64,000 nt of DNA. Source: Ancylonema sp. Taxonomy: Eukaryota. Positions 18,601 through 57,518 of this stretch are shown here, piece by piece (positions within the stretch are counted from its first letter, which is position 1; each line of letters opens with the position of its first letter). Made by a program: the position numbers and the translations under genes. The stretch is taken from the NCBI GenBank assembly GCA_050230475.1, contig JBFLGF010000120.1, forward strand, positions 1 through 64,000, written 5' to 3'. The notes beneath the pieces are model-generated. The model searched no databases, had not been told where the DNA came from, and saw nothing but the letters and a program-made list of their open reading frames with translations.

Positions 18601-20508
18601 TGGTTGGATGCATGAGGGGAACTAAACTACATTTAATGATCGTAACGTGTTATTTGTTGTACTTTCTATTTTGTTACTTGTTAGTTGTCAGTTACCCAAG
18701 CGGGCCCCCACATCTTGGTGTCATCATTTAATTTTGAATAATCACTATCAACCGATTGATCTTTACTATTGATCTTTACTATATTTACAATCTCTTTTTT
18801 TTTTCTCTGGTTTGTTGTTGGAATGATTCACTATATATTATTTATCATTTATTATTTATGAATCATTATTATTATTTAATATTTATGGATTACTTTTGCT
18901 ACTAAGTTTTTGTTATTAACTATAGATTATGATGTATTGATTTTCGTGTCATTTTCAAATATTGTTATTTATTGTTCTTACATTTTCTTGTTGCTTATCT
19001 GCTTTCTATTATGTTTTTTTTTTTGTTTATTATCAGTCATCATTCACATTTCTTACTTATTATTCAATGTTAATAACATGTTTTTGATTATTTTATGAGT
19101 CATGAGCCTTCTTCCTCCACGCGGCATTGCTCTGTCAGGCTTGCGCCCGTTGCATAAAATTTCCCACAGCTGCCTAGCATCTGTAGATAATTCTCTTTAT
19201 CATTTATCATTTATCATTTATCATTCATGAGTCATGATTCAACAATCATCATCATCCAATAGTTCTCATCCATCCATCCATCCATCCATCCATCCATCCA
19301 TCCATCCACCTATTCTTCCGTTTTTTTCACTCAATCCTCCTTCAGGGTTGAAACCCGGCGAGTCCACCCTCCCTTGGACCGTCCGCCACACCATCGCAAT
19401 CGGCACGGCAGAAGGTCTTTCCTACATGCACAACGACTGCCACCCCAAACTCATCCACCGCGACATCAAAGCCGCCAACGTGTTGCTCAACGACGTCAAC
19501 GAAGCCGTGATCGGTGACTTTGGTTTGGCGAAACAGATCAACCGCAAGGACACGCACGCGTCCACCGCGGTGAAGGGCACCATGGGACACATTGCTCCGG
19601 GTGAGGAATACGAGGGGGGAGGGGGGGGAGGGTAGGGTAGGGTGGGGTAGGTGAGGGTAGGTTAGGAGAGGGTAGGTGGGGGGGTCGGCATAGTATGGGG
19701 GGGGGGGCGAGGGACGTGACGTTTGTGTTTGTGTGGTTTCTTCCCTTCCACCCTTCCAGAGTATTTCCTCAGTGGTCAGACTTCCGCAAAGACGGACGTG
19801 TGTGCTTACGGCGTCTTTCTTCTCGAGTTGGTGTCGGGGAGAGACGTTTACAAACTGACGCTGGAGGGAATGCCGCTGGATCTCATGCTACGAGACTGGG
19901 TGAGAAATAGGGCGGAAACAGTATAAAGTATGGGATAGGAAATATGAAATATGGGAGATGAATTATGTGAAATATGAAATATGAAATCTGAATTACGGAA
20001 GTATGGAATTCACATAGGAGTCATAAGTTGAAGTATGAAATATATTCCAAAAAGAATTTAAGCAAAGGGGTTAGAAAATTTCGGATGGGGGGTGGTAGAA
20101 TTGGGAGAGAGATGGGGAGACGTATGGATATGCACTCACTCGGAACGAGTACATCGCACCCGTACCCGTGCGCAGGTGTTGAAGTTGATGCAGGAGGAGC
20201 GTTACGGCGACATTGTGGATCCCAATCTCGACACCTCGCAATACTCCCCCTCGGACATCGTGGGCCTACTGAAGGTCGCCGTGCTGTGCATGCAAGGAGG
20301 TGCGGCAGAACGCCCCAACATGGCAGAATGCGCCACCATGCTGCAAGGCACGGGATTGGCAGAGAGGTGGGAGGGGTGGCAGGCGGATGCGGTGGACATA
20401 CGGGTGTCGGATCTGCTGTCGGTTATCAAAAACGACGATATTTGGTCCAGCGGTGACTCGGGGATTAGTTGGGATGCGTTTGAGGTGGAGCTGTTGGGGC
20501 CGAGATAA
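15647..20508 (+). CDS. SERK: SERK/BAK1-like LRR-II receptor-like kinase, 12 exons, one homopolymer frameshift
   Basis: Exons 15647-15791 (GC donor), ~16203-16323, ~16408-16479, 16594-16627, 16751-16857, 16940-17002, 17220-17266, 17561-17786, 18152-18490, 19346-19600, 19760-19899 and 20176-20508. Domain order: signal peptide, N-cap [10 protein letters not shown], 4 LRRs, poly-Pro, TM helix with WRRRK stop-transfer, kinase ([42 protein letters not shown]), and the SERK-type tail [10 protein letters not shown]...ELLGPR. The C18 run at 17600-17617 shifts the frame. Confidence 0.9.
19197..19307. repeat. Intronic simple repeats (TATCATT)n and (ATCC)n
   Basis: About 4 copies of TATCATT at 19197-19226 and about 10 copies of ATCC at 19267-19307, inside a SERK intron. 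Confidence 0.85.
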
Positions 20509-27903: not shown

Positions 27904-30741
27904 TTACCGCACGTCTTCACGGAGGCGGCCGTCCATGTATTCATGAAATGCATGTAGCTGCTTCCAGTATGTTGTCCCGTCTCTTGAGGGCTGCAGGGAC
28001 GCATATTCACAGGTTGAGGGAGGAGACGAGCACTTGTCCTCGTCAAGCAGCAGGTTACGTAATCATCCCTTTGGAAAAAACGTGGAAGTGTTGATTGAAG
28101 AGCACAGTACAAGGCACATGAATTGTCAGCAGCGCAGATATAGTCCAAGGAGGAAGACCTGGGACAAGGAGCACACCCGTATTCTACGTCTTGAGAATGC
28201 CAGGACAGATACGGAAGTACAAAGCGACTCAGTCGATTTCCCTCACTCTGTTTCAGTTTCTCACCTGGTTCAGGTTGTTCACAAAGGCTTCCCGAACTGT
28301 TGGCTGCTCCGAAAAGCTCCAGTCTGCCACTTGGAAACCAATCTCCCCCTGTTCCCACATCCACACCCGAATGGCATCATTGCTTCTGCCTCTCTTGCAC
28401 TCTGCTTCATGCCATACTGCAGCTGTTGGGACAGTACCTGACCAAGCATACAACGGGGGCTCGACATCTGCCCTGGATCCTGACTAACCAGGATTCGCCA
28501 GCTGGCACAAGTTGTCTAGAATATTTTCACGTAAATATGGCAGCTATGGAAAGTATAGAAGTCTAGATCTTTCAAAAGGGAGGTGCTCTGCTGACCTCCG
28601 GAACGATATGTCGAAGGAAAAAGTCGAGTGACTCAATTTTACCTCCGGTTTCCGGATGTCGAACCAGTTGATCATCTTGACGTGAGGAAGATGCCGCCTC
28701 AAATCCACCGACATTTCATCATCTGCTTGGGCGGTAAACACCTGACCACATGCACACACAGTCCAGCTCTGAACATGAGAAAGATGAGGAAGAAGAAGAA
28801 GAAGAAGAGGAATGCACAAGGCAGGCGAAGTACGCTGCAAAGTATATATCAGAGCATACATCAGAGCATATATGAGAGCATGTATCAGAGCATGTATCAT
28901 ATACACGTGACAACAACTTAATATGTACAACAGGCAAGGCGCATACACGATGAGTGAGGAGCGTTCTACGGTCCCTCACCTGCCTCCACCATGAACTCTT
29001 CACTTCCATCTCGGACGCACAGCAGAAGGCATTCACATTGAAAAGGGCAGCAGTCTCGGGAATGGCCATGGGTTTGTTGTGCACGCCGTCCACGCAGAAC
29101 GAGGCGTAGAAGTCAGGGACCATGCTCTCGTCGCCAAGGATCCCATTGTATCGGCCTGTCAGCTGAAAACAAGGAATAATACATGTGACTTCCTGCCCTC
29201 CCTCCCTGTTCATGTGTCCGCCCAAGGCACGATCGGGGTGGAGAATACAAGGAGAAATTTAAACCATTCCATTCTCTTGAACATACTTCGAGCCTCTGTC
29301 TATACTCCATTGGAGAGTCTATCCACCCAATCAACCACGTCATCTCCAGGATAATACGGGCCGTACATGTCATCGTACTCATTCAGCACTCCATCGCGGT
29401 TGGTGTCCAGGAGAGCAAAGTCTTCACAATACACACAGGAGTAGACCCCGCCTGAAAAAGGGTAACCGGCCCCGTTATTTGGCGCCCACAGCATGGCAAG
29501 GCGTGCCACCTTGGCATGCAGGATGGATGCGACCAACCGGACTTTATGCTTGTACAGAGTGGGGCTCTGGGACCACGGGTACCAGCTTCCATTCATTTCA
29601 TGTGCGAATCGGATCATGTATGAGACTCCTTTGGCAGCGAACACGTGGAGGAAACGAGCTAGCTGGATCACCACAACTTCGGTGACAGACTCCAGTCCGA
29701 GGTTGGGCTCCAGTGTCACCAGCGCAAGTCCTCTGCGTTCTGCCACCTGCCAAACGTAGCACAAATTACTTGAAGTTGGTCCCGGGTTGTCTCATATGGC
29801 CCAATCACCCAAAGATTCATGAACAATCGAAGGAATTGCTGACAGTGGTCTCCAAGGTCTGGCTAGACCAGTGCTATATTCAGCCTCGCAGCCACTGACA
29901 CAAGAACACAAAGCTGGCGTTTCATCATGTGGCTTGCAAACACTTCCAGTGCCAAGATCATCATGACCGTCATGCAAACTAGCAGCTCATAAGCGGCAAT
30001 GTGTGAGCTGGAGACTGTTTTGAGCACCTCCAAGTTTTCGGAATCAGATTAATACAGAATGCAATACAACCAAAAATGTTAAAATTAGTTGTGCTGAAAA
30101 GGGCACTCTTGCAACCTCGAACTGTTCCTAGAAGTGCTTTCTAAAAGAACTGAAGATTTTGCGCGTCTTGGTCTGTGTGATACTCTGAATGCATTGTATG
30201 ATGTCACCATAGACATATGACGCCTAGCCCACAGTAAATAAAAAGAAGATCGCAATGATCAAACATAATAATAGGCTACTTGGCCAATTATGGTGGCTGA
30301 AGATGCTGGATATTGTCTATCCTAAAGACGGAATTCATAATATTTGCTGTACTTCCTCTGTTGGAAAAATAAACAGTCGCACGATTAGGCTACCTGGGAG
30401 TATGTGGCTAAGGTAATCGGTAATCGGCATATGGTAACAAGACAGTCAACGACCTGGTCCAGGAACTCCCTGAGGAATAAAACGTCCTCTCCTCGCATGG
30501 GCAACTCGATAAACGTCCCAAATGTGACCGGATTTACGCCAAGTACTCGCGGATAATGCTCCAGCTCCACCTGATTGTCCATGTTCACACCAAACCACAC
30601 TCCAGATTCTGGTTCCAGAGGGGCTAGATGGGCTAGATGGGCTAGAGGGGCTAGAGCCTCCAAGTTTCGGAAAAAGGTAAGGAGCAAGAAGCAACGGAGC
30701 ACAGCTATGAGCCTAAGGCAATTTGTTATTCTGAGGGCCAT
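27904..30741 (-). CDS. Secreted glycoside hydrolase family 26 (beta-mannanase-like) protein, 6 visible exons; one conserved segment is absent, so possibly a pseudogene
   Basis: Exons 30741-30454, 29746-29327, 29162-28980, 28741-28643, 28348-28265 and 27990-27904 are all phase 0. Signal peptide. GH26 motifs: VTLEP, IRFAHEMNGSWYPW (acid/base Glu), MLWAPN, YYPGDDVVDW, KPMAIPETAA (nucleophile Glu), KMINWFD. The last exon is the least certain. Confidence 0.85.
28845..28900. repeat. Intronic 12-bp tandem repeat (ATCAGAGCATRY-like, ~4-5 copies)
   Basis: atatcagagcatacatcagagcatatatgagagcatgtatcagagcatgtatc; a (GAA)n tract lies nearby at 28789-28808. Confidence 0.75.
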
Positions 30742-31415
30742 TAGGATTACGACTATGCCACTATTTAACAGATACCTCCCTGAACTCTGGACGGCTGTGC
30801 TCCCGAAGAGACTCAGCGTAATGGTATCAGACCAGTCATAAGTGGTGCTTTTGGGTCCGGCACTACAAGTTAATGAGCTTCTAGAATGGCCGGAGTCTTG
30901 AAAATGACGTTCCGCATGTCGATCTCGCGGGGAAAAAAAACGAAAAACAACTATTCACGCTGCGTAATTATGTCTGAGTGGCTTCTGAAATCATCAAATG
31001 CTGGCCCAAATGATCCTGACCACCTGCCTCGATCGACTACGGAACTGCCTCGTTGAATTTCACCACAAGTCTGTCCGGACAGTATTCTGCTCAAAATAGT
31101 ACCTACTTTCAACGACTGCGACGGGTGCGCCATTTCGGAACCTACTGCTCGTGGGAAACAAGATCTCTACACGTGGTGAGCTGCTGTGACGGAAGTGGGT
31201 AATGCATCCGCAAAAGTGACGCTGACAGTTGAGCGTAGTCGCACCCCGCCAGTCACTTCAAGCCCTCAAGCTGGCCTCCACCCGCGTCTCCCTGTCCCAT
31301 TCACCCGTCACCGGGACCCCGCCCGCATTCCATCCGCTTTCCACCTGTCCCGCCCGCAGTACACCCGGGTGGCCGCCAAAGTGTGGCGAGCGGACAGGTA
31401 AATGTGGCGGGCGGA

Positions 31416-36925: not shown

Positions 36926-39348
36926 TGTAACCATTTTTACAAGTGCTATCCCGAGATATTTAGATCTCCGACTATGAGTTTCCGTACGCTAACCAATATC
37001 TGTCACCGATCAACAATTGACATGAACGTGATAAACGATATTACACACAAGCGATGATTGGAAAAGAGTAATGTGAAAGTGTTCTCGTTGGGCTAATGTG
37101 TCCGACGAGCCGACAACAGTACAATGATTACTGGTCGCTTTTCTAGCCGACGGTCGGAACTATCGACCGTCGTCGTGCCACCGCACGTGTGTCCACGGGA
37201 AACATGCCGGACTCGAATGTCACCACACAATTCAGCCACTGGCGTGGCGACACCGCCTAGCATCCTACAACGACTACTAGAAACGTCACGCCCGTACAAG
37301 TGCGGACGCGCCACATTTGCGGACGGATACCCGGGTATAGCATTCCCGGCTCCGTTTCCTAAAAGACTCTAAGGCAATTAGTTGGACAAGGCAAACAAGT
37401 TATATGTGCCTATCCGAACTCAATTCCTAACACACCCCCTCGGATGCACAGCCTTTGGCATTGTCTGGTGCAAAGGAGGACTACCCTACAATGTGTCAAA
37501 TATCGAACTAGGGGCTCCTATGGGGCTCCTATCTAAGTCATCCCAACACATCCACGCTTGAACTTGAAGCGCTCCCGATCCTTGTCGTTTTTTGGGCTGA
37601 AGCCCTGAACATACAGACAAATACCACAAGTTAGTGAAACACAAAAAACAAAAAAATACATTTTTTACTTTTTGACTTTTCTGTCCTTTTAACCCATGCA
37701 GTCTGAAAACTTTAAACTCGCATAACTTTTTCAAAACATGTGCGTACGACCTGAAATTTTGTCATCATGTTGAAAATAGCAAAGGCAACGTACACACAAA
37801 AAATGAAGTCATTCTGAAAACTTTTGAAATCTGCAAAATCTGCAGAATGTGCTGCCCTTTTTACCTTGGCGTAAAAGTGTTTTAGGGGTATAAAAGGTTG
37901 CTGATGGACTTAGCTGGATGGTGGAGGAGTCCTGATCCCTCCAGATGTGTCCTGGCCCCCCAAAATACAGACCAAAACAAACACACCCCCTGCCAGGCAT
38001 GGCAAAGCATCCGAAAACATCCTAAAAACTTCCAATTCTGTCCAGTTCTGTCCAGTTCTATAAAAACCTCCAGTTCTGTAAAGTTCTGTAAAGTTCTGTA
38101 CACCCCCAGTTTCATTACACCCTTCCAAAACCTATTGACTTAGAATATTTGTCTAGTAAAACCTGTGGCAGGGCCTGAGTGAACATGTCCGGAGGCTGAT
38201 GGGCTCCAGCCAGGTACACGTACTTCAGTGTGCCAGTTCTGTGACACTCCCTGACCCACTGGTACACCACATTAAAGTGTTTAGCTTTCTGTCTTTGGAC
38301 TGGATTCTGTACCATGGACAGGGCTGCAATGGAATCACTGTAAACGGTAATTTCATTCGGGAACTTCAACTCATGCAAGAGCGACTTCAAGTCGCAACAT
38401 TCTTTAGACACACTACATGCAGCGATGTATTCCGACTTTGCAATGGACTGTGCAAGTGTTGACTGTTTCTGCGACTTCCAGCTAAGAGTTTTCCCCCCAA
38501 GTGTTGTTACCCAGCCAGTGACTGACTTCCTTGTCATGCTACAACTGTTCCAACTTGCATCACAGTATCCCCTTATTTCCAGCCTGTCCTTTCCCACATA
38601 CGTGAGTTCGTGGTACGTGGTTCCTTTTAGGTATCCAAACAGTTGGTGTAGGGCTTTAATGTGAGCTTCCCCACGATTACCCATGTGTTTGGCTAGTATC
38701 CCCACCGTGTATGCAATATCGATTCTGGTCTGTTTCATGGCGTAGATCAGAGACCCTATCTAAGCCCTATATTCTGTGATCTGATCGGGGGTAGGGGGAA
38801 TGAGGGGTTCATCATCTTGACTGAACTGTGTGCCTGGGGCTAGGGGAAGTTTAGTGGGGTTGCATCTTTTCGTTCCGTACCGTTTCAGTACCTCTGTGAT
38901 GTATGCCCCCTGACTTAACGTGAGAATTCTTATGTGTCTGTTGCGATGCACTTCCACCCCCAGGATATGGGTTAGGGGACCCAAGTTTTTCATCTTAAAT
39001 TCAGTTGCAATTTCAGTTTTGAATGCTTTGATCACCATGGGGTTAGGGCCTGTAATCACCTGATCATCTACGTGGATACCCGGAATGATGCGACTGTTTC
39101 CCTCCCCCCTTGTGTAGATGCAAGTATCCATAACACATTGTCTGAACCCTTGTTTAAGCATAAAGTTTTGGAACATTTCCCCCCAGACGTTAGAACTCTG
39201 TTTCAGTCCGTACAGTGCCCCCTTAACCAGCAATACTTTGCCCTCTGCCCCCCCCTCGATAAGGTGGAATCTTCATGTAAACAGTCTCCTTACCTCTTTT
39301 AACCGTCCGTGCAAAAATGCGGTTACCACGTCCATATGTTCTAGTTCT
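36926..39348 (-). mobile_element. Ty1/Copia retrotransposon remnant: 3' half of RT, RNase H, PPT and 3' LTR (36926-37432)
   Basis: Minus-strand motifs ELEHMDVVTAFLHG, KGALYGLKQS, IHVDD, MKNLGPLTHILGVEV, TRIDIAYTV, GYCDASW, RKSVTG, SWKSQKQ, YSDSIAAL and KHFNVVYQWVRE, with stops and frameshifts. PPT GAGGGGG(TG) is followed by an LTR running TGTTAGGAATT...TGGTTACA that aligns by eye to the LTR at 39349. Confidence 0.9.
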
Positions 39349-42300
39349 TGTTGGAATATTTGGATAGCCATACCTTATGCTTGCTAGTCCAATTGTAACC
39401 GGTTACTCTAACCGGGAGCAATATTCCTAGATGTGCTTACCGACCGTCGGCACACAACGATGTGTAAAGCGCATCGGGTATTACCATCCCCGATGCGATC
39501 ACAATAATTAATTCGTTCCACACACGCAACTCCTGTATCGTTGATCATCAGTGATAGAGATCCTTTGCGTACGGTTCGTTTTGTCGCCCACCAAATCTCC
39601 TGCACGTCTAATCACTCAAAAGCTTAAAAGGTTATGGGCCCACGTGCGGTCTAGTTCAGACGCCGTGTAAAAACTATAGGCTCCACGCGATTCCCTCCGC
39701 CACGCGATTCGCTGCAAAGATCTCTGAAAACGGTATATTCTGCCAGTGAGGGCAAATTTAGCCGTAGTTAGTTGTTAAGTGCTGCACGTAATTTCGACAC
39801 GACATCGCGCTGCAAGAAATCGAGCTGAGTGCTGCATTGCAGGAATGCACTGAGAGCTCGAGCTGCGTGAGAATTCTCGTGGAATCCTATACAACTGCTG
39901 CCATAATGTCGGATAGATATCAAATTCCGCAATTTACTGGAGCAGATTACAGAGGATGGGCCTTCAAGGTCAAGTATGGGTTAGCAGACAAGAAGCTGCA
40001 TCGTGTGGTCATGGATTGGGACAGCCTGCTTCGGAGGTGTCGTCCAGACATATTATAATGCCATTGACACCAGGAAATGAGCTGCAACGTTAGGGGGATC
40101 GACGTGGGAGTCGAGAGAACGGCTAGGGAGCAGCAAATTTCCCAGCAGCTTCCGCAGCTCGAGAAATGGGACGAGGATAATCTGGCTGCAATGTCATACA
40201 TTGTGAAGCACTTAGGTCCTTCGGAGCTGACGCACGTCACGGACTCACGACAACTGCCGGGATGTGGGAAGCCCTCAGGACATTCTACATGGTGCAGGGA
40301 GCTATCGAAATAGCAAACACTGAGGCGCTGCTGAGCGCTGTATCAGGCGGAGGCTGAGGACCTCAACGCCTACGTGAAGCGGCTGCAGCAGATCCACGAG
40401 GACTTGAAGAACCTGGGTGTGCCTGTGACGCCGATGAAGCAAGCGATCAACCTGCTAAACTCCCTCAACACCCACTACAGCCCTATGGGGTCTACGCTCA
40501 TGCCGTGGTCGGAGTCGTCACCACACCTCTTCACGATTCCTCACATCGTGAGTGCGCTGCTACGCGACGACGTCCGGAAAAAGCTGAACGAGCGGAAGAG
40601 GGGGGCGCTGCCAGGAGGTCACCAAGCAAACTATGGTGGACCTGGAGGAGGTAGCGGAGCTTGGAAGCAGCAGCAGACCTGGTGGTGGTGGTGGAGCTGG
40701 TCGCAGAGACGCTGGTGGCGTCGAATGCTACAACTGCCACCAATTCGGCCACATCAAGGCAAACTCTTCTTCACCAGCCGTTGGCGGAGGCCATGCCGGA
40801 GCTTGGAAATGCCACAGGTACCACCAAGCAGGCCATAGGGCTGCTCAGTGCCCTGCAGTATCGCCAGCAGCTGCCAATGTCGGACACGCACATCAGGGAA
40901 GTTCAGGGGGGGAAATCAAGTGCAGATATTGCAACAACAACAGCATTCCATTGACAAATGTAGAAAACGTGCATCTGATATGGCATTGATGAACTCAGAG
41001 GCTACTCGAAAGGCTGAAGCACAGGCTAGACTTGCTCGCTTTGCTGACACACCTTTCGATGCCAATGTGGATTATCTTGCTTTTGGTGCAACATTTGATG
41101 TTGCCCGAGCTCTGTCTGCTGGTTCTCACAAAGAGCCTCTCATCCTGGATTCAGGGGCTACTGACCACATTTTCACCGAGCGTGACCATTTCGTTGAGCA
41201 CACCCCGACCCTGAGCACGCAAAGAGCCTTCATCACCACTGCTGACGGCTCGTCGCACAAGGTGGCAGGCACGGGTTTCGTGCACATCCGAGTCACATCC
41301 GAGTGAGGAACGGCAACACGTTCTTCGTGCAGCCTCTCAACCCCTACCTTTGCCTGCACCCTCGTGTCGACATCATGCCTCGTCAAAAGAGGTGGGCTGA
41401 GCTTCTTACAGCTGCCCGCGGGTCCAGAATTGAAAAAGGGGGATGATGGGCTGATGTAGTTGGATGTACTGCAGCAGCCTAGTGGTCTGACTTTGCTTGC
41501 TGCTACCATCGTCATGCCTGGATCTCATGATACGAACTTATCCACAGGCATGATCTGACATCACAAACTGGGTCACCCCGGTTCTGATGTGATGTCAGAT
41601 TTTGTCAAACGTGGTGACATCCCACAGTTAAGTCCAGATGAATTAACTGAAGTCAGGAGGGGATGTCAAGTTTGGTGTCAGGGGAAAATGAGTCAGTTGA
41701 GTCACGCTAAGGCCAGCGAGGATCTGGGGACATGGCCCAAGATGGGTCGCATTCACCTGGATCTGATTGGTCTGTCTGTTAGGTCTGCTAATGGAGGTTT
41801 CACTTATGCTACAGGTGAGGTGTCCACACGTCTGTCATTTGTCAGTTTACTGAAAACTAAGGATGAAGCACTGAACCGAGTAAAGGTCACTATACAGTTG
41901 CTCGAGGTACAGTCAGGGTTGCCACTACAGTCTATAAGGACAGACAAGGTGGGGAGTATGTGTCTCAGGACTGGATGAACTACTGTGGGGGGAAGGGAAT
42001 TGACAAACAAACCACAAAACCATACAGTCCTGAACAAAATGGCATCTGTGAGAGACTGAACAGAACTTTGACACAAAAGATGCGATGCATACTAATTTGG
42101 TCAGGTTTACCAAAGTCATATTGGGATGTTGCACTGTTGCATGCAAACTGGTTAAGAAACAGAACACCAACTAAGTCGCTCGCTGGCAAGATACCAATTG
42201 AAGTCTGGGAGGGAAAGAAGTTAAAAATGAACAAAAGTCAGAACTTTGGGTGTCTGGTGCAATATTTAAAAGTTGGAGCAGAAAAGAACAGGCAAGGGGA

Positions 42301-43600
42301 CAAGTTTGCCCCTCGCACGTGTTTTGGTGTGTTTCTGGGGATCGCTGCGGGGAGTGCAGGCTACAACGTGTTCGACCCTCATAGGGTGGGGGTGATAGCA
42401 CGCACGGACGTGCGGTTCTTCGAGGAGGTGCCGGGGTACCCGACTGATGGGGGGGAGAGCTCCCCAGGTTGAGGCTACAGCAGAAAAACACTTCTTATAT
42501 CTGTTCCCCGACACCGAAGATGAACCCCCAGCAGCACTTGTGCCAGCAGCAGCAGTTCCCCCCAACATGCCAGCAGTCGTGCCACCAATGCCAGCACCAG
42601 CAGCTCCAGCAGCCCTAGCCCTAGCTCTAGCTGCCAACAATCTTCAGCACGACGCCTTCCAGCCACAAGCTGCTGAGGTCCCCATCATTTCGATTGAGCT
42701 GTCTGACAGCCAGTCTGGGATCAACAATGCAGGAGGTGGAGATGCAGGGGAGGAGGAGGTGCAAGGAGGGGGTGCGAACCTAGCAGAGGTGGGGGAGCCA
42801 GGCAGCATAGCAGACAGGGTAATGGCCAGATGGAGAGCCAACTTTGCCCAATATGGGGACATTCTGTGATGTGATGGGGAGGAGTTCGACGACGAGGCAC
42901 ACGCCAACTACTCAGCGACTGAGTGCCAGCTGCGTCTTCACTGGCTTCAACGGTCCAGTAGACCCTGGCTACGCCTGCGTCGCATCATCCAACAACTCCT
43001 CCGAGCCACTCACCCTCAACCATGCCATGAGGAGGCCCCAGACTGGGACCACTAGGACAGAGCTATCGTCGAAGAGCTCGCTGCCCTGGAGACGTTCAAC
43101 ACCTTTGAGGTGTGTATTCTTCCTCCAGGTAAAAAAGGCTGTGGGATGTCGTTATGTTTTTAAAGTCAAAATAACACCTAAGGGGGATATTGAAAGATAT
43201 AAAGTCTGACTGGTCGCACAGGGATTTTTAACAGCAAGAGGGAATTGACTATAATGAAGTATTTGCACCAGTTATTGACAGTACATCTATCACTTTATCT
43301 CCTCGCTATAGCAAACCACTTTGACTGGGAACTGGAACAGATGGACGTGATAACAGAGTTCTTGCATGGACGTCTGGAAGAAGAAGTATATATGAAAATA
43401 CCACCACGTATGTATATAAAAGAGGGTGCTGAGGGAAAGGTCTTACGACTGAAGGGTGCTTTGTACGGACTGAAACAGAGTAGCCACGTGTGGCAAGAAA
43501 TGTTCAGAAAATTCATGATATGTGAAGGGTTTAAACAATGTGTAATGGATACTTGCATATACATGAGGGGAGAGGGGGACAGCATACTCATATGCATATG
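39349..43600 (+). mobile_element. Ty1/Copia retrotransposon, decayed and 3'-truncated: 5' LTR (39349-39629), PBS, gag, protease, integrase, partial RT
   Basis: LTR starts TGTTGGAATA; PBS GGTTATGGGCCCAC; gag from 39906 (IPQFTGADYRGWAFKV, zinc knuckles). Protease LILDSGATDH; GAG-pre-integrase HHKLGHP...CQVWCQGK; integrase RIHLDLIG / IRTD / PYSPEQNGICERLNRTL; RT AVGCRYVFKVK, WELEQMDV, LKGALYGLKQS. Many stops and frameshifts; no RNase H or 3' LTR. Confidence 0.93.
39630..39643 (+). promoter_or_regulatory. Retrotransposon primer-binding site complementary to the anticodon arm of initiator tRNA-Met (half-tRNA priming)
   Basis: GGTTATGGGCCCAC directly follows the 5' LTR. It is the reverse complement of GUGGGCCCAUAACC in plant tRNAiMet as I recall that sequence. 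Confidence 0.85.
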
Positions 43601-43961: not shown

Positions 43962-46361
43962 TTAAAGAAGCTCCCAAATCTGCGCAAGCACCAATCGCCT
44001 CAATCCCATTGTTCATATGTTGGCCACATTCTGCGTGCGTGTATGGTGAGCGTAGAGGGGTATTCGTATACACATATATGCACAGATACATGTATACATA
44101 TAAACACATATACAATTATATCTTCATACATGGAAACATGTACACACATACACGTATATACACATATTTTATATACATATAAATACATATTTCAGTGTAT
44201 ATACTACCATAGAGTAGTCGGACATTTACACACACTCAATGTGAAACCAAGACAAAGTAAATCACAAAGGCAACTCTTTCCATTGAATTTGCTGACATAG
44301 ATGTTGGCAATGTTCAAATGTGGCCATTTTTCACCACATGTCCCATAAAACTTGTCGTATCAAATGATACGAAACCCGCGAGCAAATCCCTCCACCAATA
44401 CCATATGCATAAACCCACTTACCACCTTTAGAGAGGTGAAGTCACAACCACAAGAGCACCAGTAGGGGTTGGGGTTGGGGGGGGGGGGGGGGGGTCAAAT
44501 TGGAACTCTCACATTGATCGGCATTGCTTCAATACTACAATTCGTTGTCTCTTCCATCCGACGCAGGGCGGACACCTCTCCCGCGGAAACAAAGTTGATC
44601 ACCTCCCCTCCTGAACCCGAAACCCCACCCCCAAATCCCAACCACAACCGCAGCCCCAGCCCCAACCCCATCCCCACCCCCAACCCCAACCCCAACCCCA
44701 ACCCCAGGCCTCCAGGTGAGTGGTCAGAATACAACCAGGGAGGAGAAAATGAATGCGACGGATGAATCCCTCACAACCGATGCCTGGGGATTTTATAATA
44801 CTCGTGAGGAACGAGAATGAGTACATCGCAACCCCTCTCACCTGCTGCCCCTCCCATCGTGTGACTCAAACATGCAGAGACCCTCCGCATGTACGACTCC
44901 TGGATACACACCCAAAACCAATCGCAGACTGACAGCTGTCGGTGATTCTAAATGGTGACTGACACGTGTCGACAGACCCTGGATAAAGCACACACGTGCG
45001 GATGAAATATAACCCAAAAGAAAGAAAGTCATTGCAATCTAAGAGCCCTGGGGGAAGGGGGGTGGAGGAAATGGCAAGCCACCTTCTTCTCCGGTAGATC
45101 ATAATTGATGAGTACCCTCGCCCCCAGGGGCCCCTCCCCCCCCCCCTGACTCGGCAGACACGCGTCGGTGGACAGAAGAAGATGCGGCTTCGACCCGTCG
45201 CAGTCCCCCCCTCCACCCCCCCCCTTCCTCATCCCCCACTGGGCGGTGGTGCGACGGAAGGAGGACAGCATAGAGTGACGCTCGCCCTCACCTTGGTCGC
45301 TGTGCTGAACCCTAAACCCCAAACTCAAGGCCCGAACCCAAACCTGAAAAAGACCGAAACTTTCAACCCGAAACTCGAAACCAAAAACTCAACCTTTGCA
45401 ACTCAAAGCCCGAAACTGAGAACCCCGAAGCCAAAACCGAAACAGTCGAGAGGAGTTGGTGGATTAGACTAGAAGACTTGTTTTGTATTCGGAACCATAT
45501 ATTCTTGTTGCACCTTGCGCTGATCTCGTGTTTGTAAAATTTTCTGCGATTCCAGAGTCCTTGCTGCGATGTTGAATTTGAAGAAGAAAGCATAGGGAGG
45601 AGGAAGAAAGCATAGGGAGGAGGAAGAAACAGTAAATTAAAATTAAAAAAAGGGGGAAAAAAAAAGGCGCACGTGTTGTTTTCAGTATGAAGGACTGCCT
45701 CCGCACCTTGAGCACTGATGAGCCCCCATGGCTCGTAGGTGGGGCGACTGGAAAAGTTCATCAAATAAATATGAACTTTTGTCTGTTTAGAGGACAGTAC
45801 TTTCACTCTGGGACACTGGTCGGGAAAGATTTGAGAGTATAATGCACAAGTAGCCGAGGTTCTTTCTCATAGAGTGACAAATTCAGAGGTTGCATGCACT
45901 GTCTACGACTGGTGATGTGACAGTGCGTACAAGCCCCCGATCATACCAGGTAGGAGACAGAGAATCTTTTCAACGCTGACGTGGCCGCCAGTAGAGCGTC
46001 CAGGACATCGCGACTGCCACATGCGATGGCCAATGGGAGAGAAGGAAGGCGTCCTAGATGCTCCAGTAGGTCCACAAATGATTCCTGTCCGAAAGTTGGG
46101 GCAGCACAATAAAACAGGAGGCACAGGCAAGGGGGGAAATAATTTCATGCAATAATGACATACATATTTCGTTAAGTTCCTTGAATTGATCCTTGAATTT
46201 AATAAGAAGGCTGGAAGTAAGGAAGAACTGTTTTTTACATGTGGGAAATGGGTACAGTGTCCTCATATCTTCCACTTGACTGTCAGATTGAAATAGCCCC
46301 TCACCATTTTGAAGTGCTGACGATCCACGGCCACGTAAAAGTGATGTAGGGGGTGTGACAT
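43962..46361 (-). CDS. eIF4A/DEAD-box-like protein consisting only of the C-terminal RecA (helicase-C) domain, 196 aa, 6 exons
   Basis: Exons 46361-46305, 46084-45947, 45304-45083, 44899-44842, 44610-44513 and 43979-43962 total 591 nt in frame. The product reads MSHPLHHFYVAVDRQHFKMESFVDLL...AIACGSRD...LHSDQGEGER...FR...LLLSTDACL...VLINYDLPEKKESYMRRVSACL...VINFV...IEAMPINIWELL*. It resembles a small conserved plant protein (At4g37020-like, from memory). Confidence 0.88.
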
Positions 46362-52312: not shown

Positions 52313-54544
52313 ATGCCGGCCTTTTGGGGGCGCAGCAAGAGTGGGAGACAGTTTCAGCCCACGGACAAGGCTGTCATGGCCTCCTTGGCCACTATGGCTG
52401 CCCGTGTCTTCCCTAATTCAAGAATGCGAGCCAATAATGCGGTTCTTGTAGGAATACTGGCCTTTGAAATGGGAGGAATCGTGAGGAGGTCCCTGGAGAT
52501 TTGGGACTCGATGCAGGAGAAGGACCTTTCGCAGCTAAGGAGAAGCTTACAGGTGCTGACAACAAGTCACATGACATGCCGTACAAAATGCAGTATATGA
52601 GTACCTTTTTGCTCTTTCCGACATGATTTGCGGTGTCTGTAAGATCGATGACTGTAGTTTGCTGTAGAAGGAATGGAAGCTATGCGCGCTACTGCACTTA
52701 TTAATATGTAGCTCTGAAATTAAAAAAAACAGGTGCAAATCGCCGAAGGTGGCTATCCTCAGGAAGTACTCGCGCCAATCTAGGACAGTCTTACGTTTTG
52801 AACCTGAAAGCATAACAAACAGGCAGCGCACCCCCCAAACTAAAATGCTGAGACGCTGATGGCGACAAAGTCTGGCGGGCTGTGTACTCTGCGCAGGCGG
52901 CAGGTATCCAGAACTTAATATCGCCAGACAACACGAAGCTGTGGGCTCTCTCTGGTATGTTCTCCACCTTTGCCGTATCTGCGCCCATCCTTTGTCGTAT
53001 CCGCATCCATCACCGTAGCCACAGCGCTCAGGTTCCCATTCGACCCAATCGCGGCGACTTTTGCGGGGGTGGTTGTAGGTCTCGAGAAACAGGAGCAGCT
53101 GAACGTGCTGGCTTCCCGGGTTGCGGTGCTGGGCATCACGTGTGCCGACCCGCGCCTGCACGGGCTGACACCTATCATGCCACATGTCGGGCGGTCGCAA
53201 GATCCGCAGACGGAGATGGGACAGCTGGATGTGCAGCCGAAGGGAGCCGAGCTGCTCATCAGGTGGGAACAACAGAGCAGGAGGGGTTGCAGAAGCAGGT
53301 GGACGAACGCGGGGGCTATCAGAGAGGGGGGGGTGTTTGACGCCCCTCTCTGGACAATTGTAGGGTCGCTATTTCCTGTGTGAGGGCAAATCTTCGTTCT
53401 GAAAGTATGTATGGTGGGCATACGAACGACTCACACCTGATGTCTCTGTTCCGGTTCTGTATCTGGTCCTCATTCGGGTGCAGGTTCATGAAAGACCAAA
53501 CCGACATCATCAACAACTTGAAGTGGGAGATGGAGACGCTCCAGCACCTATACAGCAGGTGACTTTTTAACCCCCCTCCACCCCCCCCCCCCCCCATGAT
53601 TCCATCTGAGAAGTCAATGTCGGTGCTGATGGTGGTGGAGGGGGGGTGGGAAGTGGAAAGAAAAAAAGTGGAATTGTGGGAAAGGCTCTCAAAGCTTCAG
53701 AAATCAATGCCCCTTTCTGCCACTTGTTGTATCCTTTTTGCCCCTTTTTGCCGCAGGGTGCGCCTGCATGGGGAGACCGATAAGATGCCCGAGATTTTGG
53801 CACAGGTTGGTTCCCCCTCCCCACCCTTTGTCCGCCTGAAGAGGAGGTGGGAACAGGGGCTGAGATGGGTCGCGGGTGGGGTTGCAGAGGGACCTCATCC
53901 TCCGTATGCAGGCCAACTGCCTGTGGTCGCAAAACCTGTACATCTCTGTCCCCCACCCTACAACACACCCACCAAAAAAGGGACAACAGAGTATACATTG
54001 CTTGCAGCGTAACCCATCCCCAACTGCCAGCCTGACCGATGTTGGAGTGGTCGGGGGCTGGGGTTGGGGACCCGGCAGTTAATGGTTCTTATCGTCTCCA
54101 TGCTCCGGAAGCGCATTTTGGCAATTTCCGGGAGTGCAGTCCACCCCGACGCCCTCAAGTCGGGCTCATTGGGGCAAGCGGGACTGGCGCTGCACTACAC
54201 CCACATCGTAGTATTCATCGAACAAATATTCAAGGACCCAACGATGGTGCTCGGATCCGCCAGGTCAGCAAAAAATAAAAAAAAAGACGGGATCCGTGCC
54301 TGGTTGCTAGTTACAGTAAAACCTGTCTAAAGGAGTAACCTCTCTAAAGGAATAAAAAATTCCGGTCGCAAAACCGGATTTGTGAGGAACCGTGGCTGTC
54401 TAATTGAATAACCTGTCTAAAGGAATATTACTTCCCGGTCCCGACAGTATTCCTTTAGACAGGTTTTACTGTATCCGGCCACCCGGTTAACTTCGTAATC
54501 GGTAGCCTTGTCGCAACCAGCCATGCTCATGGTGTCCGCTTTGC

Positions 54545-54581
<37 letters not shown>

Positions 54582-56997
54582 GGGGGGGGGGGTAGGTCTT
54601 GGGTGCAGGGACGAGTTCTACCAGATGCTCCCCCGCGAGATCCAGGGCGCCGTCCGCATCCACCTCCGCGACAAACGGACGGTCGGCAGCGACCCTCGCA
54701 TCGAGGAGCGTCTGAAGCGTAGCATGACCCTCCTCCCCCCCCTGGCGCGCAACACCATCAGCTGGCAGACGGCGCACACCCCCGGGTTGAACTTCATCCC
54801 CAAAACCACCGTCTTCCGCGTGCAGACCTTTGAGTACGCCGACAAGGGCGCTGTCAACCAGGCGCTCGTGGACGTGCTCGTCGGGCTCTGCCACGTGTGC
54901 AACACGGACGAGGATGACGTGGCGACCCCGAGGTCCTCGGGATCGCATCTGGAGGCGCCCGGGATGCGGCCTAGAACTCCCAGGAGGGAGGAGGGCGGCA
55001 GGATGGGGCAGGAAGAGGCGCCAGTGTTGAGGGGAGAGGTGCAGCAGCAGAAGATGGCTTCTTACCGCACGATAGAGCCCAAGGCGGCCGCAGGGGGGGG
55101 GGGAGGAGGGGGAGTGGGCTCAGAGCCACCTGGACGAGAATGGTGAGCCCCTGGTGCCTGTGTACCAAAACTCGAAAGCAGTGGGGGGCACTTACGACAT
55201 TTACAACGGAGCGCTGCACTCGGCAGTGGCGGCTGCGCCGGAGAGGGGGGGGCCGGGGGCGGGGGCGGACTTTGGGTTACGCCACGGGGAAGGGGAGTAT
55301 GGGGAGGGGGCGTCTCCGCTAGACTCCCCCCCTGGGGCCCCCAATGACCTCTACCACACAGCGCCTTCTCAAAATGAGTACTCTGCAGCGGGCTACAATG
55401 AGTACATCCCCCCTGGGGGCGGGGGGGGGGGGAGGGGGAGGGGGGAGTTGGACATTTACGGCAGTGACCCCCCCCCCATAAACGGCCACGAGGATTATGG
55501 GGCGGATTCAGACTACTCCCGCCAGTCCAGCATGCAGTATGAGGACAGGAGCGCAGCCCGCAGGGCCACCCTCCAGCCCCCCCCCCCCAACCACGTCAAC
55601 GGGGTTGGGGCCTACGCTGCAGAGGCGGCCGTGAGGGCGGAGGCCGCCACCCGTACGGAGCGGTGGGTGGAACCGGCGGTTACCCTGGGGGCGGTACAGC
55701 TGAGGAGGATGGACTCGCAGGGGAGGGGGGACCTGCCGCAGGGGGGGCTGCTGAGGAGGATGGATTCGCAGGGGAGGGGGGACAACCCCAACCCCAACCC
55801 CCAGCTGCGGAGGATGGACTTGCAGGGGCGGGGGGATCGGGAGAGGGAGAGGGAGAGGGAGAGGGAGCCCAATTTGAGGCGTATGGATTCCCTGGGGAGG
55901 AACCAGGGCGGAGAGCCCCAACTGCGCAGGATGGATTCCCAGGGGAGGAGTCTGGAGCAGCCCCAGCTGCGGAGGATGGACTCGCAGGGAAGGGGGGATA
56001 GCAGCGGGCAGTTCCGACGGATGGATTCGATGGGGAGGAATGACAACCCCAACCCCAACCCCAACCCCCAACCCCAACTGCGGAGGATGGATTCCCAGGG
56101 GCGGAATGATAACAGGGAGCTGAGGAGGATGGATTCGCAGGGGCGGGGGGATAACCCCAACCCCAACCCCCAGCTGCGGCGGATGGACTCGCAGGGGCGG
56201 AACGATAGCGGGGGGGGAAACCTTTGCAGAATGGATTCGCTGGGGAGGAACGAGAACTCCATCCCCAACCCCCAGCTGCGGCGGATGGACTCCCAGGGGC
56301 GAAACGACAGCGGGGGGTGGAACCTGCGCAGAATGGACTCCCTTGGGCGAACAGCTGCGCAGCGGGGGGGGGGGGCCAGCCTCGAGGTCCTGCTCGGGGG
56401 GTTCAACGGCCCCCCCGGGGGTGGGCTGCAGAGGACAATCTCGGTTGGGGAGGCCCAGTTCAGGAGAATGGATTCCCTGAAGCGCGTGGACGGGGGGGGG
56501 AACACAGCCCTCCAGCGAATGGATAGTCTGAGTCGGGTGGAAGGGAGCGGAAACAATCTCCGTAGGATGGATAGCATGGGGAGGACGGATGCAGGGGGGG
56601 GGGGGGGTTGCGGAGGATGGATAGCATGGGGAGGTCGGATGCCGGGGGTGGGGGGGGTCTGCGGCGGATGGACTCCATGGGTCGATCCGACAGCGGGGGG
56701 CTGAGGCGCATGGACTCGCTGGGCCGGAATCCGGGGTCCAAAACACGCAAAGCAATCCATATCGAGGTTTCTCGATCCACGGGGGAGAAGCAGGTGACGA
56801 TCAACGTGGCCACCCTCATGGCCAACCACGCCGCGAAGCCGCCCACGTCCAACCGCCCCCCGCCGCAGTTCGCCCCCGTGGCCTTGGACCCACGGGAGAA
56901 GAGGGGCGCCCTCAGACCCACGCGCAGCATGAGGGCCAAACCCAAGTCAAGGGGACTGTGTTCTTGTGCGGGGTGGTCGAATATGGTGATGGACTAA
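52313..56997 (+). CDS. DUF3475 + DUF668 (PSK SIMULATOR / PSI family) protein with a ~700-aa disordered C-terminal tail of LRRMDS repeats, ~1080 aa, 8 exons
   Basis: Exons 52313-52552, 52897-52954, 53079-53262, 53484-53558, 53757-53805, 53888-~53953, 54079-54263 and 54609-56997. DUF3475 motifs: VGILAFE, GIQNLIS, LGITCADP. Linker CLWSQNL. DUF668 motifs: SLGQAGLALHYTHIV, ARDEFYQMLP, PLARNTISWQ, RVQTFEYADK. Two frameshifts lie in G runs (55093-55103, 56594-56607), and the exon-6 donor is uncertain. Confidence 0.88.
54314..54471. mobile_element. Tc1/mariner (pogo-like) MITE family C, 158 bp, intronic
   Basis: Perfect 21-bp TIR CAGTAAAACCTGTCTAAAGGA / TCCTTTAGACAGGTTTTACTG, TA TSD, internal copies of AACCTSTCTAAAGGA. 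It sits in intron 7 of the DUF668 gene. Confidence 0.95.
55700..56727 (+). repeat. Coding repeat array: 19 x [LF]xRMD[S]-type motif (consensus LRRMDSQGR) with variable low-complexity spacers
   Basis: Counted in the translations of ORFs 55154..56704 and 56608..56997. Spacers include NPNPNP, ERERER and GGGGG. Confidence 0.95.
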
Positions 56998-57518
56998 GGG
57001 GAGGAGAGGATCCGGGATTGTTTGGGCTCATTGTTGGGGTCTGCGGCCCTCGATGACATGCGGCCCCAAAGGGAGATACAGATGCATGGTTGTGTACAGA
57101 AATCTGGGAGGTCATGCGTGGGAAGTCAATTTACTCATGGTGATTATTGAGTGATTGGACTTCAGGGTGGGGGTAGATCTTTGTTGCTAGTGGCGGGGTT
57201 TGAATCAGAAGTATAGAGCATAGATGGGTTGTGATTGTCCGAGTTCCGATCGTGTTCCGATCATCAACGTTTCTTAGTTTATTTATTTTTCGGATTTTGG
57301 GTGTATTCAATACTCTTTTTTTTTTTGGACGATCGGAACTATGACCGGGAATATTCCGACTAGATGGGGGCCTTCATAGATTGGAGAAGTTTCAAGTGAA
57401 GAATTTCCTCGTTACCTGAGTCAAACGATTGTTTGAGTGTGCGCAGGAAAACCACTATTTGGTTGACATACGCTTAAAACATTTGAATGTTAGTGTTTCT
57501 TCCTTTTGCCCTTTCTTA

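What the first reader, a model, noticed from the sequence alone, without database searches (positions are those of the whole stretch)
55700..56727. PSI/DUF668 protein with a 19-copy LRRMDS phospho-acceptor array, a candidate multisite phospho-switch
Seen: after the DUF668 domain the last exon continues ~700 codons into a G/P/N/R-rich tail. It holds 19 copies of a motif with consensus [LF]RRMDS[QLM]GR (18 keep the Ser) plus an LQRTIS variant. The motif is conserved at protein level while the DNA drifts: all six Arg codons are used, Asp is GAC or GAT, Ser uses both TCN and AGY codons, and spacers vary freely. A neutral minisatellite is unlikely to behave this way. Known: hydrophobic(-5)-x-R(-3)-x-x-S is the consensus of plant CDPK, SnRK1 and SnRK2 kinases, and RxxpS sites are typical 14-3-3 docks. 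The land-plant DUF3475/DUF668 proteins I know have no such tail. Inference: a disordered polycationic tail whose charge, membrane or cytoskeleton binding, 14-3-3 loading or condensation is tuned by up to 18 phosphorylations. This is the best candidate for an undescribed system in the window.
Basis: partly seen in the sequence, partly recalled or inferred. Interest (0 to 1): 0.88.

Follow-up and report, generated by a model that had tools for sequence, protein, structure and literature searches.

The report
Algal PSI protein with kinase-motif array
A gene of the plant PSI/DUF668 growth-regulator family, most like those of conjugating green algae, ends in a long tail with 19 copies of one short motif that selection has kept at protein level and that likely serves as a bank of kinase sites tuning membrane contact, but as sequenced the tail is cut by two frameshifts in runs of G, so this copy may not make it.

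Summary
The array is real: 19 RMD[SL] copies at 55700-56727, 15 matching [LF]RRMDS[QLM]GR exactly. It was kept by selection on the peptide: pN/pS 0.10-0.35 against a null of 0.98, and 17 of 18 spacings in frame. It is not one open frame. Error or recent mutation is open; no RNA could be laid. The gene is a DUF3475+DUF668 protein grouping with Closterium, Mesotaenium and Netrium. Long low-complexity tails are usual there (median 493 aa, 25 proteins), but 0 of 25 carries RMDS. A paralog contig of the same sample carries the motif. The unit fits LxRxxS and RxxSxxR, motifs of CDPK/SnRK clients; it lacks the +2 Pro of the classic 14-3-3 site. Best reading: a lineage-specific multisite phospho/charge tail, phosphorylation untested. 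New variant of a known family; interest 0.45. No earlier scan note matched.

The parts
52313..52552 (+). Exon 1 (ATG; start of DUF3475); no N-terminal Met-Gly myristoylation start
   Evidence: GT donor; aligns with algal homologues
52897..52954 (+). Exon 2 (DUF3475, second part)
   Evidence: spliced model open and aligned to homologues
53079..53262 (+). Exon 3
53484..53558 (+). Exon 4
53757..53805 (+). Exon 5
53888..53947 (+). Exon 6; its donor (TCT|GTCCCC) is weak and the joint is about 2 residues shorter than in homologues, so this boundary is unsure
54079..54263 (+). Exon 7 (first part of DUF668)
   Evidence: Pfam PF05003 E 2.5e-5
54609..55092 (+). Last exon, frame mod1: rest of DUF668 and end of the helical core (to ~54900), then linker
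   Evidence: PF05003 E 1.2e-6; 46-52% identity to zygnematophyte proteins
55093..55103 (+). G11 run: first frame break (mod1 to mod2); read as it stands the protein stops at TGA 55144-55146
   Evidence: run X1 contig spans it without gap, run X2 contig has one G more
55104..55699 (+). Acidic, Tyr-rich low-complexity linker (198 aa, net -16, 13 Tyr), frame mod2
55700..56584 (+). Motif copies 1-16 (LRRMDSxGR) with NP, ER and Gly spacers made of microsatellite DNA; LQRTIS variant at 56426
56594..56607 (+). G14 run: second frame break (mod2 to mod1); the spacer is 23 nt where the next, near-duplicate unit has 24
   Evidence: window, X1 and X2 agree on the length
56608..56727 (+). Motif copies 17-19, frame mod1
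56728..56997 (+). C-terminal 89 aa ending in a basic stretch followed by Gly-Leu and Cys; candidate membrane anchor; stop TAA 56995-56997
   Evidence: a second contig of run X1 matches up to 56928 and goes on in frame as LRSKPKLWGL against the window's MRAKPKSRGL (loose end translated by eye)

Best explanation
This is a PSI-like (DUF3475+DUF668) gene whose last exon carries 19 selected copies of LRRMDSxGR in a long low-complexity tail, likely a lineage-specific bank of CDPK/SnRK2-type phosphorylation sites that would tune the tail's grip on the plasma membrane, and as sequenced the tail is interrupted by two frameshifts at G runs. Shown: the gene model (445 open codons up to the first G run), its place among zygnematophyte proteins, the array, purifying selection on it, the motif in a paralog contig, the two breaks. 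Inferred: the full protein (~1080 aa) is a helical core plus a disordered tail held at the membrane by its basic/Cys end; the array (338 aa, net +20) binds acidic lipids; graded phosphorylation of up to 18 serines takes it to about -16 and loosens that contact or changes partner binding. The array grew by tandem duplication and microsatellite slippage, with selection keeping frame and motif. The two breaks are either run-length errors (about even odds) or recent slips that have silenced the tail in this copy only.
For: pN/pS among units 0.15 (6 codons) and 0.22 (9 codons) against 0.98 mean, 0.57 minimum in 300 simulations, and 0.69-2.14 in the other five frames; 0.22-0.35 on codons not used to pick the units. 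17 of 18 spacings are multiples of 3; a 542-codon open frame. Top 7 hits of 54 (E<1e-10) are Closterium and Mesotaenium; clade of 9 rows, SH-aLRT 99, quick tree. Paralog contig (X2 record 9): 36 differences over 54790-54976 (of the 27 listed, 16 at third positions; 13 of 23 changed codons silent) and matches to motif units at 55913-55949 and 56664-56693. LxRxxS/T is the OST1 optimum (PMC2978106, passages); LxRxxS and RxxSxxR are enriched in CPK/SnRK clients (PMC11174488, passages). Arabidopsis PSI3, PSIL1, PSIL3 fusions sit at the plasma membrane (bioRxiv 10.64898/2026.08.17.745151, passages). 11 of 25 algal relatives carry a basic stretch followed by G-x-x-G-C-F in the tail. Long runs are unstable between data sets: X2 differs from the window by one base at three runs, two of which must be as in the window for the frame to stay open.
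Against: No data set shows an in-frame length at either break: X1 contigs (depth 64 and 88) span both without a gap, X2 (depth 3-4) has G12 and G14; window and runs differ at three substitutions, so they are not simply the same consensus. Two long C runs in other genes of the window (C16 10765, C18 17600) look in frame (by eye). Two copies carry damaging changes at core positions (Ser to Leu, Arg to Cys), as expected if selection has just relaxed. 0 of 25 algal relatives has RMDS and their tails hold 0-5 such sites, so the array is not needed by the family. Met and Asp are invariant (19 of 19), stricter than a kinase consensus demands, which suits a binding motif. Membrane binding, acylation and phosphorylation were not tested.
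Confidence: 0.45

Rival explanations
1. The frameshifts are real and recent: this copy makes only the core (ending ...EPPGREW at 55146) and the array is a decaying relic of a tail still used by a paralog or by an ancestor.
For: X1 reproduces both run lengths, X2 the second; two damaging changes in the motif; other long runs in window genes look in frame; relatives with short tails exist (6-98 aa in 4 of 25).
Against: No stop in 542 codons and four other G/C runs of 10-12 are in frame; both breaks fall on the error-prone site type (PMC9262707 passages: runs of 10 or more remain problematic for Nanopore; PMC13456413 passages: all assemblies struggle with long runs, mostly over 20); contigs hide minor alleles. 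This rival concerns the state of this copy and is compatible with the motif's role in the best explanation.
Confidence: 0.4
2. The unit is a repeated short binding motif (multivalent 'sticker') for one partner domain, with phosphorylation secondary or absent; the tail acts as a scaffold or condensate linker.
For: Met, Asp, Arg(-3) and Arg(+3) are invariant in 19 of 19 and +5 is Asp/Glu in 15 of 19, more than a kinase needs; spacers are flexible and 4-14 aa long apart from one.
Against: The divergent LQRTIS copy keeps only L-x-R-x-x-S; relatives hold scattered L/V-x-R-x-x-S sites of varied sequence; the unit fits two client motifs at once. No partner is known.
Confidence: 0.25
3. The first shift is programmed or spliced: a short intron, or slippage on the G run, joins core and tail in part of the transcripts, giving a short and a long form.
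For: In the paralog contig the motif lies at the same +1 phase to the DUF668 frame (distance 523 against 937 in the window, both 1 mod 3). A 55-nt GT-AG intron 55039-55093 with good sites and a CTTAC would restore frame.
Against: 55039-55093 scores as coding in the core frame (0.24 bits/nt; four real introns -0.02 or lower) and is shorter than the gene's seven introns (82-345 nt); X2 overcalls long runs by one, which alone can give the paralog's offset; no intron mends the second break without removing motif copies.
Confidence: 0.1
4. A neutral GC-rich minisatellite that happens to be open in one frame.
For: Spacers are microsatellites (AACCCC, GAGAGG, G runs), and AACCCC tracts occur elsewhere in the window.
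Against: pN/pS 0.10-0.35, 17 of 18 spacings in frame, 19 DNA units giving 8 peptides, motif shared with a paralog about 20% diverged.
Confidence: 0.03

Closest known systems
PSI / PSK SIMULATOR (DUF3475 + DUF668) proteins of land plants: Arabidopsis PSI1-3, PSIL1, PSIL3; rice and cotton DUF668 families; C-terminal half of wheat Sr43
   Same: DUF3475 then DUF668; multi-exon gene; about 26-37% identity over the aligned part.
   Different: Land-plant members are 357-656 aa in rice (PMC6969926 passages) and 209-652 aa in cotton (PMC8162019 passages) and end soon after the domain; this one has ~700 further codons and no Met-Gly start (PSI1 has a putative myristoylation site, PMC10260397 passages).
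Long-tailed DUF3475/DUF668 proteins of Zygnematophyceae (Closterium CAI5477473.1, GJP30980.1, CAI5506123.1; Mesotaenium ME000373S06350; Netrium P003096), unannotated
   Same: 40-46% identity over 340-370 aa (31% for Netrium); one clade; Gly/Ser/Arg-rich tails, median 493 aa; a basic + Cys motif late in the tail in 11 of 25.
   Different: None has a repeated motif of this kind; 0-5 hydrophobic-x-R-x-x-S/T sites against 20 here.
CDPK/SnRK2 client motif LxRxxS/T (ABF3, RBOHF) and RxxSxxR
   Same: All 18 Ser copies fit hydrophobic(-5), Arg(-3); all fit Arg(+3).
   Different: ABF3 holds four such sites, of varied sequence; here 18 near-identical ones; +2 Pro of the 14-3-3 site absent.
Multisite charge switches and phospho-repeat tails: MARCKS effector domain, yeast Ste5, CFTR R region, PIN TPRxS triplet, BKI1 (all recalled, from no call)
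   Same: Disordered basic segment with many phospho-acceptors near a membrane anchor: a model for how it may work.
   Different: No sequence relationship was tested or is claimed; those carry fewer and less uniform sites.

Membership tests
PSI / DUF3475+DUF668 family | DUF668 domain (PF05003) above Pfam cut-off | tested here: met
   Two exon pieces score 29.3 and 25.1 bits, cut-off 24
PSI / DUF3475+DUF668 family | N-terminal DUF3475 domain (PF11961) | tested here: inconclusive
   Exon-1 piece covers profile 1-31 of 57 at E 3.4e-4, 21.1 bits, under the cut-off 29.7; the spliced domain was not scanned, but it aligns to four relatives that pass
PSI / DUF3475+DUF668 family | Full-length homology of the core and place inside the family tree | tested here: met
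   BLASTP E 1e-99 to 1e-82 over 339-369 columns; clade with Closterium, Mesotaenium, Netrium, SH-aLRT 99, quick tree of 32 rows
PSI / DUF3475+DUF668 family | N-terminal myristoylation start (PSI1; also Mesotaenium and Netrium proteins) | tested here: not met
   Predicted start MPAF, no Met-Gly; also absent from most Closterium members, so not required of all members
PSI / DUF3475+DUF668 family | Growth-promoting role, plasma-membrane or nuclear location | not testable with these tools
   Known for Arabidopsis members only
CDPK/SnRK2 substrates | Hydrophobic(-5)-x-R(-3)-x-x-S/T consensus | tested here: met
   18 of 19 copies plus two further sites; 20 against 1.6 expected
CDPK/SnRK2 substrates | Phosphorylation in vitro or in vivo | not testable with these tools
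   No proteomic data at hand
Mode-I 14-3-3 clients | Pro at +2 (RxxpS/TxP) | tested here: not met
   +2 is Gly 17, Lys 1, Ser 1; lowers but does not exclude non-canonical binding
Intact protein-coding last exon | One open frame from DUF668 to the stop at 56995 | tested here: not met
   Two breaks in the window; none of two runs shows an in-frame length; whether error or real is open

The most novel reading that the evidence does not exclude
The poly-G run between core and tail is a conserved switch: in both paralogs the motif array lies at +1 to the DUF668 frame, and slippage or a short alternative intron lets only part of the transcripts append a membrane-anchored, 18-site CDPK/SnRK2 phospho-rheostat to a PSI growth regulator, giving a short free form and a long tunable form.
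Probability: 0.07. Interest if true: 0.8.

Novelty: new variant of a known kind. Interest (0 to 1): 0.45.

Why it matters
The molecular job of PSI/DUF668 proteins is unknown although they are needed for plant growth and half of the wheat rust-resistance protein Sr43 is one. A natural member with 18 near-identical basophilic kinase sites gives a direct handle: which kinase, which location, which effect. It also shows that the sister lineage of land plants has a long-tailed branch of the family that I found in no paper of the library (searches: with 40 of 82 hits listed, 25, 67). The weight is limited: one organism, no expression data, and a copy that may be broken.

Tried and rejected
No whole genome held, so paralogs are known only from contig pieces. 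No RNA holder listed: no evidence either way. Run X3 laid nothing on 54600-57100 and X4 only three short unrelated pieces. Word-index searches with the DUF668 piece (0 of 305 candidates) and with the array (0 of 7986, lengths 523-2000 only) found nothing; weak evidence, since one search missed relatives that one search found. Two-copy DNA pattern in metagenome contigs: 4 hits, 4 of 4 with out-of-frame spacing, chance. ESM Atlas: no usable hit for the array; the core did not complete. PDB sequence search: 0. Fold of the Mesotaenium core: first model poor (pLDDT 50), second good (90.4, all-helical, 51 rows); Foldseek no hit at E<=0.001, VIA-align best Z 8.5, rmsd 4.1, 96 aligned, generic three-helix bundles on residues 31-228: no functional lead. 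The window's own protein was not folded. Literature search for the motif letters: 4 papers, unrelated by title (listing only). The original PSI paper is not held. Earlier scan notes: none by sequence (17), none relevant by words (41), none for this genome (42). Introns to mend the second break: all remove motif copies. P0009 is a repetitive false hit and P0018 probably one too; both were left out of the tree and of the fold alignment, as were short fragments and near-duplicates. The tree is the quick search; the careful one did not finish. Supplements were not read; phosphoproteome tables (e.g. PMC10783624, passages only) may hold algal DUF668 sites.

Full report
Observation. The array is at the stated place. 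A six-frame scan of the window finds RMD[SL] 19 times between 55700 and 56727 on the + strand and twice, singly and without Ser, elsewhere. Arg(-3), Met, Asp and Arg(+3) are invariant. A scan on DNA alone recovers all 19 units at 9 or fewer mismatches, with one shifted extra.

Selection. Pairwise pN/pS among the units is 0.15 for six codons and 0.22 for nine; scattering the same number of changes at random gives 0.98 on average and 0.57 at least in 300 runs; the five other frames give 0.69-2.14. On codons not used to pick the units the ratio is 0.22-0.35. The 19 DNA units are all different and give 8 peptides. Seventeen of 18 spacings are multiples of three although the spacers are slippery microsatellites that read as NP, ER and Gly runs. 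Units are related, so these are not independent pairs, but a neutral minisatellite is not tenable.

Frame. The last exon is not one open frame. The domain is in frame mod1, which stops at 55144; copies 1-16 are in mod2, open for 542 codons; copies 17-19 and the C-terminus are in mod1. A periodicity score trained on the gene's exons changes frame at G11 (55093-55103) and at G14 (56594-56607). I laid contigs of four runs, three from one sample. X1 spans the first run (record 1, depth 64) and the second (record 7, depth 88) without a gap. X2 (depth 3-4) has one base more at three runs, among them the first break, and agrees at the second. No in-frame length appears at either break. Both runs differ from the window at three substitutions, so the window is not their plain consensus. 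Against that, X2's extra bases at two runs that must be in frame show that such runs are misread, and contigs drop minor alleles. Published benchmarks say long runs trouble assemblies, more so over 10 (Nanopore; PMC9262707, passages) or over 20 bases (PMC13456413, passages). I put error and real recent slips at about even odds. A 55-nt intron 55039-55093 would mend the first break but scores as coding; none mends the second without losing copies. No RNA run was listed, which says nothing.

The gene. Eight exons from 52313 splice to 445 open codons up to the first G run; the exon 6 donor is unsure. Pfam finds DUF668 above cut-off and part of DUF3475. Of 54 hits among 1.84 billion representatives the best seven are Closterium and Mesotaenium proteins; the core aligns to them at 40-46% and falls in a clade with them and Netrium (SH-aLRT 99, quick tree). 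The window is therefore most likely from a zygnematophyte or close streptophyte alga (inference). A profile search of proteins over 642 aa returned 16, all Closterium or Mesotaenium. Twenty-five algal proteins (some near-duplicates) have tails of median 493 aa; 46 other rows have median 28. So the long tail is a trait of this algal branch. The repeated motif is not: 0 of 25 has RMDS, and their tails hold 0-5 hydrophobic-x-R-x-x-S/T sites against 20 here, 1.6 expected. The Mesotaenium core folds confidently as an all-helical domain (pLDDT 90) with no telling structural match.

Paralogs. One X2 contig (3764 nt, depth 12) matches the DUF668 exon with 36 differences in 187 bases, mostly at third positions among those listed, and further on matches two motif units. 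Another contig in both runs carries similar Gly-flanked units but shows no match to the domain in the stretch laid. A loose end at 56928 continues in frame as LRSKPKLWGL beside the window's MRAKPKSRGL (by eye). So motif and C-terminus are older than this copy. In the first contig the motif lies at the same +1 phase to the domain as in the window (523 against 937 bases); one overcalled run would explain that, but it keeps a programmed or spliced shift alive at low odds.

How it likely works. The unit L-R-R-M-D-S-x-G-R fits LxRxxS/T, the optimum of the SnRK2 OST1 (PMC2978106, passages), and both LxRxxS and RxxSxxR, enriched among CPK/SnRK clients (PMC11174488, passages; that study found no significant motif for SnRKs alone). 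It lacks the +2 Pro of the site that bound 14-3-3's paper, where a plain LxRxxpS peptide did not bind. The array has net charge +20 over 338 residues and would reach about -16 with 18 phosphates; an acidic Tyr-rich linker precedes it. The protein has no Met-Gly start but ends in a basic stretch and Cys, and 11 of 25 relatives hold a basic + Gly-Cys-Phe motif late in the tail. Arabidopsis PSI3, PSIL1 and PSIL3 fusions are at the plasma membrane (bioRxiv 10.64898/2026.08.17.745151, passages). I infer a tail anchored at its end whose basic array lies on acidic lipids and is lifted stepwise by Ca2+- or stress-activated kinases. Every step of this is untested. The main functional rival is a repeated docking motif, favoured by the invariant Met and Asp.

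Known and new. Family membership is secure. Land-plant members end by about 656 aa (passages). I found no paper on algal members or on this motif (listings only; 40 of 82 DUF668 papers listed; subscription papers and supplements unseen). Multisite charge switches are a known principle (MARCKS, Ste5, CFTR; recalled). The finding is a new variant: a selected, near-uniform 18-site array on a PSI-like protein, in one lineage, in a copy that may be broken. Interest 0.45.

Noticed in passing
window 55137, 56397, 56960: Contigs of runs X1 and X2 both read T where the window has A, G, G; all three change the residue in the proposed frame (E to V, G to V, C to F). Window errors or another haplotype.
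   Followed up: partly
window 53938-54078: Exon 6/7 joint: weak donor GTCCCC and about two residues fewer than in relatives; acceptors in this gene are G-rich rather than pyrimidine-rich.
   Followed up: partly
window 54546-54592: T35 followed by G12 near the 3' end of intron 7.
   Followed up: no
window ~16400-19900, + strand: Multi-exon receptor-like kinase gene: LRR-like exons, Pro-rich stalk, transmembrane segment, kinase domain (Pfam E 5.7e-14); its C18 run looks in frame.
   Followed up: partly
window ~10600-12100, - strand: PPR-repeat gene (Pfam PPR_2 E 2.4e-11) with a Gly-rich end containing a 16-base run.
   Followed up: partly
window 38115-42870: Copia-type retrotransposon pieces: RVT_2 on the - strand (38760-39272), gag and integrase on the + strand (40335-42472), so two elements or a rearranged one.
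   Followed up: no
window 29300-30954, - strand: Weak glycosyl hydrolase family 26 match (E 6.9e-4, under cut-off).
   Followed up: no
window 1305-1687; 11640-11723; 44621-44706: (TA)191 tract and AACCCC-type tracts; the same AACCCC repeat forms the NP spacers of the array.
   Followed up: no
proteins P0003-P0005, P0055, P0070-P0077: 11 Closterium DUF668 tails share LRKAMQ-x-GG-x-VGCF, a conserved basic + Cys motif in otherwise unalignable tails; candidate acylation site.
   Followed up: partly
protein P0069: Closterium DUF3475/DUF668 protein with armadillo-repeat annotation (PF00514) and a short tail; fusion or gene-model join.
   Followed up: no
X1 record 8 / X2 record 15: A further contig with Gly-flanked RMDSMGR-like units and no match to the DUF668 exon in the stretch laid: a third locus with the motif, gene unknown.
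   Followed up: no
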